Made by a program: the position numbers and the translations under genes
Notes under the pieces: model-generated
What the model saw: only the letters and a program-made list of their open reading frames with translations
Told to the model about the DNA's origin: nothing
Databases searched by the model: none
From: an uncultured Phycisphaerales bacterium
Lineage (GTDB): Bacteria > Planctomycetota > Phycisphaerae > Tepidisphaerales > Tepidisphaeraceae
Reading direction: 5' to 3'
Assembly: GCA_963758525.1 (NCBI GenBank)
Contig: CAVWVQ010000003.1
Location: 1,312,001-1,376,000 of the forward strand
DNA length: 64,000 bases
Part shown: positions 1 through 2,867 of the stretch, piece by piece
Position numbering within the stretch: the stretch's first letter is position 1
How the letters are laid out: each line of letters begins with the position of its first letter

Positions 1-631
1 TTCACCCCCCTCCAAATCCAGTCATTCAACCCGCTCTTTTCCGGATTCCCGATCGCGTATTCCACCGCATGTATAAGGTCCTTCTCGTCGCGAACAAGAT
101 GGTCGTAGTACTCGGTCAGCCAGTATTCTCCACTTCGGTTGAGCAGCTTGTTTGCTGCTCGCGCCGTCCAGAGTTTCCAGGAATGAAGAACCGCGTGCAG
201 TTCGACGCCCCGCAGCGGCTGCAGCACCACATGGACGTGATTCGGCATGATGCACCATGCCAACAGCCTATACCGCTCGCCATCGAAGTGCTTCAGCGCA
301 TTCTCCACCATCTCCGCAATTTCAGGCTCGCCAAGTGTGCATGAGCCATGGCCGGCGTCGAGATACGACTCGACCCGATCGGAGTACAGGTATTCCAATC
401 GCTTTAGCTCGTCGGCAGATAGCGGCCGTCTTTGATCACGCGCCGTCTCGATAATGGCTTGGCGCTCAGTACGCCAGCTCTTGAGAACTTCGGCTGGCAG
501 GGAATCCGCAAGGCGAAAACATACTGCATAAATCGACCCGTTCTTTGTCCAGTGCGGGAGACGGGCGCCCTGGCGGACCTGAAGATTACTTTTACTCGGC
601 GCCGTTCGCACGGGTTGGAAACCCGTGGTAC
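1..631 (-). mobile_element. REP palindrome plus REP-associated tyrosine transposase (RAYT/TnpA-REP, HUH Y1) domain, in frame with dinG
   Basis: Translation RQGARLPHWTKNGSIYAVCFRLADSLP...AWCIMPNHVHVVL...HSWKLWTARAANKLLNRSGEYWLTEYYDHLVRDEKDLIHAVEYAIGNP contains the HUH motif (HVH), the DHxVR motif and the catalytic YxxxNP. It is preceded by palindrome CACGGGTTGGAAACCCGTG (609-627). Confidence 0.88.
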
Positions 632-1907
632 GCGAGGTGCAGAGGGTTGCGCTGGTGAGCACCACGCTCTTCACCTTCTCGAACAGATGCGTCTTGAGGC
701 CCGAGGCGATGCTCACGGGGGCGGCGTGAAGCGCGAGCTTGCGCGACGGACCTTTGGACAGGTCCATCCAATACACCGTGTCATCCACGGCCTGGCTCAT
801 GATGGCTTCAAGCATGGCGGCGGTATTGGCGATTTTGTCGGCCGTGCTGCTCAGCTCGGAAATCTCGGCGTCTTCCGTCAGCGATGGCAGCATCGCCTTG
901 AGATGGAGCGAAAGATTGCGCAGTTTCGGGGAGAGGTCGTTTTCGACCACGTGCGGCTGATCGATCCGGCCGTTGCCGCGGCCCTGCTCGCGCTGCCAAT
1001 CGGCGCAGCGGTCGAAAAAGGCGTCGGTCAGAATGTGCAGTTCTTCCACGTCGCGGATCGCGTCGTTGGCGGCCGAAGCGTGCGTGCTGAGCATCCCCTT
1101 GCCGCGTTTGGGATCGTGAAGCATGCGGAGCTGATATCGCATGCCGTTCTCGGTGATGTTCATTCCAAAGTGACTGGCGGCGACGTCTTCGATGGTGTGG
1201 CCTTCATCGAAAATCACGGCGTCGTACTTTGGCAGATAGTTGATGCCCGCCATGCGCAGCGCCAGATCGGAGAAGAACAGCGCGTGATTGACGATGAGAA
1301 TCGTTCCGTTTTGCATGCGGCGTTTGGCTGCCTGCCAGAAGCATTCGTTGTAGTAATTGCACTTCTTGCCGAGGCAGTTTCCATGTTCCGCGCAGACGCG
1401 GTCCCACACGCCCGGCTCGGGCTCGACGGGCAAATCAGATCGTGACCCGTCGCGGGTTTCGGTGGCCCATTTCTCGATATCCCACAGCGACTCGAGCTGC
1501 CGTTGCTGTTCGAACAGCGACCCCTGCCGCGCGCGTGTCTGTTCCAGTCGCCGCTGGCAGAGATAGTTGCCGCGCCCCTTCACCAGCACGGCGGTAAATT
1601 CGTCGGGATAGACCGCCTGCAGGAGCGGGATGTCTTTCTGGATTAACTGTTCCTGCAAAGCGATGGTGTGGGTCGAGATGACGATGCGCTTTTGTTTGCG
1701 CACGGCGAAGTCGATCGCCGGCAGGAGATATGCGAAGGACTTGCCGACGCCGGTGCCCGCCTCGACGAGCAGATGATGTTCGTCGGTCAGCGCGCGCTCG
1801 ACAGCCTCGGCCATCTCCAATTGCTGCGGGCGAAACTCGTAACGCTCGCCAAGCCGGCGCGCGACGGCGCCATCGGGGGCGAGAATTGATTCCAGCGCGG
1901 AGGACAT
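1..1907 (-). CDS. dinG: DinG-family ATP-dependent Fe-S helicase (N-terminal part, runs off the window edge) with an in-frame RAYT domain insertion
   Basis: Hand translation from ATG 1907 gives FRPQQ (Q motif), EAGTGVGKS (motif I), Cys cluster NYLC..VCAEHGNCLGKKCNYYNEC, IFDEGH (motif II) and VLTSATL (motif III). I read the frame codon by codon with no stop over 1-250 and 537-662. It is absent from the ORF track, as expected if it stays open to the window edge. Confidence 0.92.
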   Translation of the reverse strand, partial: MSSALESILAPDGAVARRLGERYEFRPQQLEMAEAVERALTDEHHLLVEAGTGVGKSFAYLLPAIDFAVRKQKRIVISTHTIALQEQLIQKDIPLLQAVYPDEFTAVLVKGRGNYLCQRRLEQTRARQGSLFEQQRQLESLWDIEKWATETRDGSRSDLPVEPEPGVWDRVCAEHGNCLGKKCNYYNECFWQAAKRRMQNGTILIVNHALFFSDLALRMAGINYLPKYDAVIFDEGHTIEDVAASHFGMNITENGMRYQLRMLHDPKRGKGMLSTHASAANDAIRDVEELHILTDAFFDRCADWQREQGRGNGRIDQPHVVENDLSPKLRNLSLHLKAMLPSLTEDAEISELSSTADKIANTAAMLEAIMSQAVDDTVYWMDLSKGPSRKLALHAAPVSIASGLKTHLFEKVKSVVLTSATLCTSRTTGFQPVRTAPSKSNLQVRQGARLPHWTKNGSIYAVCFRLADSLPAEVLKSWRTERQAIIETARDQRRPLSADELKRLEYLYSDRVESYLDAGHGSCTLGEPEIAEMVENALKHFDGERYRLLAWCIMPNHVHVVLQPLRGVELHAVLHSWKLWTARAANKLLNRSGEYWLTEYYDHLVRDEKDLIHAVEYAIGNPEKSGLNDWIWRGV

Positions 1908-1926: not shown

Positions 1927-2205
1927 AGGGTTCAGGGTGTCAGGGGTCAGGGTGTCAGGGTTCAGGGTTCAGGGTGTCAGGGGTCAGGGGGTCAGGGGGT
2001 CAGGGGGTCAGGGGGTCAGGGGGTCAGGGGGTCAGGGGGTCAGGGGGTCAGGGGGTCAGGGATTCGAGTTCCGAACAACTATTGCGACCCGCAATGCGGG
2101 GCTGTCGTTCGCGCAGCGTACTTCAACACCCGGTCCCGCGACTCTTCCTGAACCCTGAACCCTGAACCCTGAACCCTGAACCCTGAACCCCGAACCCTGA
2201 CCCCT
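1927..2205. repeat. Opposed short-tandem arrays: GGGTTCA/GGGGGTCA units (1927-2061) and CCTGAAC units (2147-2205)
   Basis: Directly visible 7- and 8-mer tandem units in inverted orientation around a spacer of about 85 bp. A related array (CCTGAAC/CCTGACAC) sits at about 28256-28288. Confidence 0.9.
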
Positions 2206-2867
2206 CTAACGTCCAATCTCTTCCTTCCACAAATGCGGATGGGCGGCAATGAAATCCTTCATGATGCGAATGCATTGCGAATCGTGGAGGTCGACGACTT
2301 GCACTCCGTGGGATTTGAGGAATTCGGGATCGCCGGCGAAATTTTCCGATTCTCCGACGACGATCCTGGGCACGCCAAACTGAACTGCGGCGCCGCTGCA
2401 AAGGTGACAGGGCATCAGCGTGGAGTAGAGCACGGTGTCCTTATAGGTCTTCTGCCGGCCGGCGCGCGTCAAACAGTCGATCTCGGCGTGAGCCATCGGA
2501 TCATTGTTCTGCACGCGACGATTATGGCCGCGGGCGATGACCTGCCCGTCCCGCACCAGCACCGATCCAATCGGCACGCCGCCCTCGGACAAACTGAGGT
2601 TGGCCTCTTCCAGGGCGGCGAGCATAAACGGGTCCGGCGCGGCGCCGGGTTTGAGGGCGGCGAGGTCGCCGACATCTTTGGGCGCCAATTCGGCCGCCGA
2701 TTTGGTCTCCTTTTGAATCTGCTGATAGACCTCCTTGCGATGGACGGGCACCTTGCGGGCGCGCTGATGCCGAGGCGCACTTTTTCGCCGCGCACATCGA
2801 CTACGGTGACTTCAATTTCGTCACCGATCATAATGGTCTGGTCGCGCGTGCGGGCGAGCACAAGCAT
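2206..2867 (-). CDS. csrA: CsrA (carbon storage regulator) domain fused to an FCY1-like Zn-dependent cytosine/nucleoside deaminase; 1-nt frameshift near 2757
   Basis: ATG 2867 gives MLVLARTRDQTIMIGDEIEVTVVDVRGEKVRLGISAP. One added base continues into KVPVHRKEVYQQIQKE (CsrA C-terminal helix), which reads without a stop into DPFMLAALEEA...GHNRRVQ...HAEIDCL...LMPCHLC...LWKEEIGR. Confidence 0.85.

What the first reader, a model, noticed from the sequence alone, without database searches (positions are those of the whole stretch)
1..660. Intact-looking RAYT transposase and its REP inserted in frame inside DinG helicase
Seen: directly after motif III (VLTSATLC) the frame runs through a REP palindrome (translated RTTGFQPVR) into a domain of about 190 aa. 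That domain keeps the HUH motif (HVH) and the catalytic YxxxNP, and it is still open at the window edge. The helicase C-terminal motifs IV-VI are not in the window. Established: RAYTs are normally free-standing genes flanked by REPs and they cut ssDNA; DinG is a 5'-3' helicase that unwinds D-loops, R-loops and G4. Inference: either a REPtron persisting as an in-frame passenger domain in a host gene, or a functional helicase-HUH fusion similar in logic to relaxase-helicase or Rep-helicase proteins.
Basis: partly seen in the sequence, partly recalled or inferred. Interest (0 to 1): 0.82.

Follow-up and report, generated by a model that had tools for sequence, protein, structure and literature searches.

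The report
Transposase living inside a DNA helicase
This bacterium's only dinG/yoaA repair-helicase gene carries, in its own reading frame, an intact hairpin-cutting transposase between two inverted DNA hairpins; the transposase is likely made as an unspliced extra domain of the helicase and likely spreads those hairpins, and related cassettes sit in frame inside many other housekeeping genes although such transposases are described as not moving.

Summary
Confirmed. The frame runs past the window edge into helicase motifs IV-VI: one 902-aa DinG/YoaA with a 252-aa insert after motif III. The insert is REP-RAYT-two inverted REPs, built like this genome's 44 REPINs but with the transposase as spacer. 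It is the genome's only dinG, and the only one of 29 Y1 loci flanked by this REP family. In 35 family genomes the site is filled in 14 (28-417 REPs genome-wide) and RAYT-less in 21 (median 3). Catalytic residues are kept (HxH 87/87, Tyr 84/87 rows; dN/dS about 0.3). The same clade sits inside ValRS, LeuRS, AlaRS, CarB, UvrA, MetH, IspG and methylases, so this is likely a passenger REPtron, not a helicase-relaxase machine. RAYTs cluster by host gene; one of three suspected same-site swaps passed an AU test. Translation and activity are untested. Ten paper searches found no description. The scan noted the same habit earlier on other DNA (another dinG; recG, priA, alaS).

The parts
639..1907 (-). 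DinG/YoaA N-terminal part, aa 1-423: Q motif, Walker A (GTGVGKS), Fe-S cysteines, motif II (DEGH), motif III (TSATL at 656-642)
   Evidence: motifs invariant or nearly so in alignment A1
609..631 (-). Left REP: GTAC guide tetranucleotide + hairpin (8-bp stem), translated TTGFQPV
   Evidence: hairpin -8.3 kcal/mol, DNA parameters
1..584 (-). RAYT / TnpA-REP (Y1 HUH) domain, aa 442-644 (ends about 25 nt beyond the window edge); no start or stop codon of its own; carries a clade-specific helical insert of about 55 aa. The same frame continues outside the window: two tandem inverted REPs (G000:C3:1311884-1311948, read HGLETRGT twice), then helicase domain 2, aa 676-902, motifs IV-VI and the stop (G000:C3:1311882-1311199); window position 1 = C3:1312001
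   Evidence: (4ER8, E 0.0027)
231..239 (-). HUH motif H557-V-H559
42..59 (-). Catalytic Tyr617 motif YAIGNP

Best explanation
A REP-RAYT-REP cassette sits in frame in a length-tolerant loop after motif III of the single DinG/YoaA helicase, is likely translated as an unspliced internal domain, and likely remains an active transposase that maintains the genome's REP hairpins. SHOWN: one open frame; intact motifs of both enzymes; cassette ends built like a REPIN; filled, REP-only and empty alleles in relatives; the same clade inside many unrelated hosts. INFERRED: (1) the monomeric HUH domain folds on its own between two disordered REP-coded linkers and borrows the host's promoter, start and stop; (2) it binds single-stranded REPs, cuts near them and rejoins strands, as shown in vitro for E. 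coli TnpA-REP; (3) because the cassette is a REPIN whose spacer is the gene, it is occasionally excised and re-integrated as a unit, probably into a resident REP/REPIN; (4) only in-frame landings in tolerant loops survive selection; (5) at dinG it is old and mostly inherited, often lost (leaving REP scars, after which REPs decay) and sometimes replaced by another RAYT.
For: Frame and domains. AlphaFold model pLDDT 78.9 with linkers 426-455 and 646-674 under 50; best fold match E. coli DinG 6FWR, E 7e-33. Selection: HxH 87 of 87 and Tyr 84 of 87 DinG-embedded rows, Tyr 64 of 64 in other hosts (rows include duplicates); pN<pS in 524 of 524 pairs, median dN/dS 0.30 vs 0.22 for the host. Enzyme-REP link: only 1 of 29 Y1 loci in G000 has this REP within 900 nt; REP counts 28-417 in 14 filled vs median 3 (0-56) in 21 RAYT-less genomes; the embedded copy is the only clade member in 8 of 13 filled relatives; cassette-specific REP variants form genome-wide families, 18 copies in G022 and 37 in G017, 0 in the other 4 genomes each; left and right REPs differ at 2.2 of 23 bases vs 5.6 shuffled (62 cassettes); the residue at the Q95 position goes with the fourth guide base (Q in 52 of 56 with G, 6 of 16 without). 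Movement: host range; clustering by host gene; G000 carries REP-only inserts in the same carB and uvrA loops where other genomes carry the RAYT; GC3 of the RAYT below both host halves in 32 of 33 loci; one swap supported at p-AU 0.0023.
Against: No RNA or protein data: translation without splicing and catalytic activity are untested. The REP association gives only 3-5 of 6 independent pairs in the same direction, none opposite, p 0.06-0.25, not significant. Four RAYT-less genomes keep 28-56 REPs. Two of three suspected swaps were not supported (p-AU 0.13 and 0.66), and 83 of 87 DinG rows form one clade with host-RAYT distance correlation r 0.58, so movement is rare. No second or recent copy of the cassette in G000. 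The Q95 and dN/dS counts are not corrected for relatedness. In G015 a REP variant other than the one at the cassette has 101 copies.
Confidence: 0.72

Rival explanations
1. Domesticated functional fusion: the helicase and the HUH domain work together (DinG unwinds R-loops, D-loops or hairpins and feeds ssDNA to the nuclease), as in relaxase-helicases.
For: Long residence and purifying selection at dinG. RAYTs need ssDNA, and R-loops are proposed as a source (PMC3333891 section 25). Many hosts are DNA-acting enzymes.
Against: Absent at this site in 21 of 35 family genomes, scattered over the tree (at least 6 changes forced by starred branches). The same cassette sits in ValRS, LeuRS, AlaRS, CarB, MetH, IspG, TsaC, MurC-Ddl, with catalytic residues kept in the 64 non-DinG rows checked. 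Linkers vary freely in length and are predicted disordered.
Confidence: 0.12
2. Vertical relic: one ancient insertion per host gene, now immobile; the RAYT is a domesticated REP-maintenance gene that happens to be expressed from a host gene, and the patchy distribution is loss only.
For: Clustering by host, Mantel r 0.58, single copy; two of three swap tests not significant; matches the published view of RAYTs.
Against: More than 15 host families and several sites per host (two cassettes each in AlaRS, IspG, MetH, DUF1156 proteins) need many insertions. 12 of 25 supported RAYT splits conflict with supported host splits. Hosts 98% identical carry RAYTs 52% identical with different REPs. One AU rejection.
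Confidence: 0.12
3. The insert is removed before or after translation (intron- or intein-like), or the allele is a tolerated or decaying disruption or an assembly artefact.
For: The inverted REPs could pair in the mRNA; this assembly has at least one apparent frameshift nearby (csrA-like gene).
Against: No intein (Hint) match in Pfam. The RAYT has no start or stop of its own yet is under selection, so it must be read in the host frame. Sole dinG copy with all motifs. All 19 filled metagenome loci that could be read are open (one flagged row was a pattern miss). An independent contig bridges the junction.
Confidence: 0.04

Closest known systems
REPtron: RAYT / TnpA-REP with REPs, REPINs or BIMEs (E. 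coli TnpA-REP, PDB 4ER8; NCBIfam NF047646; PMC3333891, PMC3479197, PMC8266576, PMC6006769)
   Same: HUH + single Tyr in YxxxNP; W/Q..E..D/H..R guide-binding strand; tetranucleotide-footed hairpins on both sides; single copy; cognate REP family dispersed as inverted pairs; REP decline where the gene is missing.
   Different: [quoted passage not shown]
Intragenic REPs and Rickettsia palindromic elements (PMC3733652 section 15; RPEs as cited there)
   Same: In-frame palindromes in loops of repair genes and tRNA synthetases.
   Different: Those add 20-82 aa and encode no enzyme; here the whole 200-aa transposase is inside.
Inteins and self-splicing introns with homing endonucleases (recalled, no call)
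   Same: Works like them in hiding a mobility enzyme in conserved genes at recurring sites, with gain, loss and replacement.
   Different: No splicing domain found; sits in variable loops rather than conserved cores; the enzyme is a ssDNA HUH transposase, not a double-strand homing endonuclease.
Relaxase-helicase fusions (TraI/TrwC; Rep-helicase; recalled)
   Same: An HUH domain and a helicase in one chain.
   Different: Internal insertion in an SF2 Fe-S repair helicase, dispensable, between chromosomal genes rather than in a transfer region, same domain in non-DNA enzymes.
DinG/YoaA helicases (NF053712 YoaA 606 bits, cut-off 680; PDB 6FWR)
   Same: All motifs, Fe-S cysteines and overall fold.
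   Different: 252-aa insert after motif III.

Membership tests
RAYT / TnpA-REP | HUH motif and single catalytic Tyr (YxxxNP) | tested here: met
RAYT / TnpA-REP | Score over the curated family cut-off | tested here: inconclusive
   NF047646 60.9-64.5 bits vs 80; PF01797 22.6 vs 23 in the full protein, 26 in the genome scan; best match in PDB is 4ER8
REPtron | Flanked by cognate REPs that are dispersed genome-wide as inverted pairs | tested here: met
REPtron | GT[AG]G guide tetranucleotide | tested here: inconclusive
   GTAC in this cassette; fourth base G on all flanks found in 56 of 80 clade loci with a REP
REPtron | Free-standing, intergenic gene with its own start and stop | tested here: not met
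   free-standing relatives with a nearby ATG exist, e.g. L082, L120, L125
REPtron | Single copy per genome | tested here: met
REPtron | Cleaves and rejoins ssREP DNA | not testable with these tools
   needs biochemistry
Quentin 2018 TnpA-Y1 subclass | Subclass profile | not tested
   motifs NHVH / WQ / YxxxNP resemble subclass 2.7 in Table 1; further profiles are in supplements that I did not open
IS200/IS605 TnpA | YxxxQ motif, multicopy | tested here: not met
   YAIGNP; single copy
Intein | Hint splicing domain and C-terminal His-Asn | tested here: not met
   no Pfam match at E 0.1; insert ends ..RGT-DPAF
DinG/YoaA | Q, I, II, III, IV-VI motifs and Fe-S cysteines; DinG fold | tested here: met
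   (motif names recalled)

The most novel reading that the evidence does not exclude
A distinct class of mobile element: an autonomous 'giant REPIN' that moves its own HUH transposase gene into REP landing pads inside coding sequence, lives permanently as an unspliced protein domain of housekeeping and essential enzymes across Planctomycetota, Verrucomicrobiota and other phyla, and replaces resident cassettes at the same loop: an intein-like way of life without splicing, and a natural domain-insertion engine.
Probability: 0.5. Interest if true: 0.9.

Novelty: new variant of a known kind. Interest (0 to 1): 0.78.

Why it matters
RAYTs are the standard case of a domesticated, non-jumping bacterial transposase, and whether and how they or their REPs move is open. 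A clade found at many unrelated host loci implies that the gene has moved repeatedly, and the three allele states at one loop (empty, REP-only, filled) with genome-wide REP counts make REP birth and decay testable. It suggests that a mobile element can persist in housekeeping genes without splicing. Unexpectedly long proteins were discarded as fusions or annotation errors in the main survey (PMC6006769). The sites also mark loops that appear to tolerate a 200-aa domain.

Tried and rejected
Single-sequence AlphaFold run failed (pLDDT 37.7); the alignment-based run was used. No RNA holder listed, so expression was not examined. The X2 contig that seemed to skip the RAYT is a 114-nt REPIN with unrelated flanks, not an empty dinG allele. 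The first REP pattern had a loop one base short and was uninformative. REPIN lengths in G000 show no clear frame preference (mod 3: 11/19/14), so frame keeping looks like selection, not mechanism. No other Y1 domain nested in a housekeeping gene of G000 was found; the 471-aa frame at C3:3451526 looks like a short Y1-like gene at the end of a long open stretch. AU tests did not reject sisterhood for P0047+P0112 or G007+L131; at the DNA level G007 and L131 keep patchy similarity into the linkers, which fits REP conversion plus fast change as well as a swap. The tree is the quick one; the careful search did not finish. The site was not read in G026 and G031 (no dinG match) and G041 (motif pattern missed), nor in the class members not fetched; G005 has an assembly gap just after the RAYT and G021 ends at a contig end. 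L109 (ValRS host) is frameshifted in the RAYT and also in the host part, probably read errors. No complex prediction was run. Look-ups of earlier findings by sequence and by place gave nothing.

Full report
Observation. The minus-strand frame from window 1907 is open at the edge. In the laid genome it continues to a stop about 800 nt past the edge, giving 902 aa. Residues 1-423 and 676-902 are the two halves of a DinG/YoaA helicase (NF053712, two stretches, E 7e-182; Helicase_C_2 E 3e-52), and tblastn finds no second dinG. The 252-aa insert holds a RAYT-like domain (NF047646 E 1e-16, below cut-off; best PDB match E. coli TnpA-REP 4ER8) with MPNHVH and YAIGNP. It is bounded by one REP on the coding strand and two tandem REPs on the other strand. 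Source names of relatives (Humisphaera, Tepidisphaeraceae) suggest Tepidisphaerales; G000 itself is unnamed.

The REP. GTAC plus an 8-bp hairpin; the 19-base core is exact 71 times, 90 times with up to 2 mismatches. With related variants there are 185-190 sites and 44 inverted pairs of 61-186 nt with the tetranucleotides outermost. The cassette has the same orientation, so it is a REPIN whose spacer is the transposase. The GTAC version has no stop in any of six frames. Of 29 Y1-type loci checked in G000, only the embedded one has this REP within 900 nt; several others have their own repeats. A clade profile (built with this copy among its 14 rows) scores it 333 bits and the next locus 38.

Alleles in relatives. 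Of 61 genomes searched I read the site in 35 of the family, G000 included: 14 filled, 21 without RAYT, 4 of these with REP remnants (G001, G014, G018, G035); 0 of 13 read outside the family were filled. G004, one of the 21, is unpublished; no conclusion depends on it. RAYT-less loops in the family run from 29 to 167 aa between SATL and SPF, so the loop is tolerant. States are scattered on the DinG tree (10 changes, at least 6 forced). Among 80 metagenome loci the site was readable in 43: 19 filled, all open, and 24 without RAYT, several of them distant homologues.

Selection and fold. HxH is kept in 87 of 87 DinG-embedded rows and Tyr in 84; in other hosts Tyr 64 of 64 (some rows are duplicates). 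pN<pS in 524 of 524 pairs; median dN/dS 0.30 over 79 unsaturated pairs, host 0.22 (pairs are not independent). AlphaFold with 56 sequences folds both enzymes (pLDDT 78.9, pTM 0.65) with low-confidence REP-coded linkers; Foldseek ranks E. coli DinG first. E. coli TnpA-REP is a monomer (PMC3479197, passages), which fits life inside another chain (inference).

Is it the working enzyme for the REPs? One degenerate pattern gives 28-417 sites (median 151) in the 14 filled genomes and 0-56 (median 3) in the 21 others. Corrected for kinship, 4-5 of 6 independent pairs agree at a threshold of 20 REPs and 3-4 at 50, none disagree, p 0.06-0.25: suggestive only. In 8 of 13 filled relatives the embedded copy is the only clade member at E 1e-15; six RAYT-less genomes with 12-56 REPs have none. 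Unusual cassette variants are genome-wide families only in their own genome among five tested. Left and right REPs change together (2.2 vs 5.6 mismatches, lowest shuffle 4.8), and Gln at the position of E. coli Q95, a residue near the guide, goes with G at guide base 4 (52 of 56 vs 6 of 16; 8 mixed loci left out; uncorrected p 1e-5). G000 has Leu there and GTAC.

Other hosts. Of 795 longer proteins the best 120 are 74 DinG (P0001 included), 14 ValRS, 6 N6/N4 methylases, 4 each DUF1156, MmeI/Eco57I, type ISP and TatD, 2 IspG, 2 HsdR, AlaRS, MetH, a glutamine amidotransferase and 3 unassigned (biased towards the query). Of the best 80 GTDB loci (at least 533 relatives) 35 are internal, 6 one-sided and 39 in short frames, many apparently free-standing; hosts include LeuRS, CarB, MetH, TsaC, SpeD and TetR (22 of the 80 loci scanned). 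Of the best 150 cluster representatives 36 have 100 aa or more on both sides; 53 were scanned and add UvrA, MurC-Ddl, XseA and a chorismate-binding enzyme. IleRS and ThiE (named from recalled motifs) carry more distant copies. G000 has REP-only in-frame inserts in carB, uvrA and purL; the carB and uvrA ones lie in the loops where P0181/P0173 and P0160 carry whole cassettes (compared by eye). This argues against helicase-specific coupling and for exchange between REP-only and filled states; direction is not shown.

Inheritance and movement. RAYTs group by host (21 changes for 16 labels vs 68 shuffled); 83 of 87 DinG rows share a clade (SH-aLRT 96) that also holds three type ISP copies (quick tree). 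Host and RAYT distances correlate (r 0.58, p 0.0005), but 12 of 25 supported RAYT splits conflict with the host tree (FastTree). P0047/P0112 are 98% identical over the host halves and 52% in the RAYT with different REPs, against 80-90% for three other 97% pairs. AU tests rejected one of three host-defined groups (p 0.0023, 0.13, 0.66; groups chosen after seeing the distances). RAYT GC3 is lower than both host halves in 32 of 33 loci (medians 0.66 vs 0.83 and 0.80; some loci are duplicates). Reading: old residence, frequent loss, occasional replacement and rare jumps to new genes.

Mechanism. Shown: anatomy, alleles, selection, distribution. From print: TnpA-REP cuts ssDNA near REPs and does strand transfer; excision of a circle and integration at a target carrying a REP is the authors' model (PMC3333891, passages and section 25); the guide sets the cut site in one system, GTAC giving GA/GT (PMC8266576, passages). 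Inferred: the same reactions on the whole cassette; survival of in-frame landings only; loss by recombination between repeated REPs. Untested: translation, activity, any benefit to the host.

Literature. I saw passages of PMC6006769 (plus part 4 with Table 1), PMC5581495, PMC3733652 (plus section 15), PMC8266576, PMC3333891 (plus section 25), PMC3479197 and bioRxiv 10.1101/2021.07.10.451892; no supplements, which may list fusions (PMC6006769 Additional file 1; PMC3733652 files 3 and 4). They describe intragenic REPs and REPs inside RAYT genes, call RAYTs non-jumping, and discard long fusion proteins. Ten searches (listings only, apart from the papers named) found no report of whole RAYT cassettes inside host proteins; the library lacks most subscription journals. 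Automatic JGI names already join the two labels. Earlier notes of this scan describe the same habit in other genomes, once in dinG; they are unchecked and not counted as evidence.

Verdict. Real and general; known parts in an apparently undescribed arrangement that conflicts with the published immobility of RAYT genes. New variant of a known kind, interest 0.78.

Noticed in passing
G000:C3:2156568-2160239, 1277559-1281164, 1271551-1272957 (L232-L234): REP-only in-frame inserts of the same family in carB, uvrA and purL; the carB insert is a full inverted pair.
   Followed up: yes
G000:C3:4444754-4445526: Tandem array of 21 REP copies at 38-39 nt spacing.
   Followed up: no
window 1928-2061 and 2147-2205: Inverted arrays of 7- and 8-mers (CCTGAAC / GGGGTCAG) just upstream of dinG; the same 16-mers are counted about 190 times in the genome and occur near another Y1 gene at C3:4371390.
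   Followed up: no
window 2206-2867, minus strand: A csrA-like gene appears frameshifted near 2755; its C-terminal part continues in frame into a deaminase-like ORF. Possibly a sequencing indel in a CsrA-deaminase fusion (family names recalled, not scanned).
   Followed up: partly
G000, many loci: At least 29 Y1-type loci of several kinds, some multicopy, several with their own abundant repeat (up to about 295 counts of one 16-mer near C5:12200).
   Followed up: partly
P0002, P0003, P0004, P0005, P0006, P0011, P0014, P0022, P0065: Proteins with two separate RAYT cassettes in one chain (AlaRS, IspG, MetH, DUF1156, Eco57I-type).
   Followed up: partly
P0147: A DinG-family protein with the cassette at a different site (aa 167-357) and no RAYT in the motif III loop.
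   Followed up: partly
L066, L067, L070; L107, L119, L139; L074, L075, L088: C-terminal RAYT fusions to ThiE (shorter RAYT type), SpeD and TatD.
   Followed up: partly
G000:C3, about 1311040-1311195 (just past the dinG stop, outside the window): Further REP-like hairpins of the GTGG variant lie directly downstream of the dinG stop codon.
   Followed up: no
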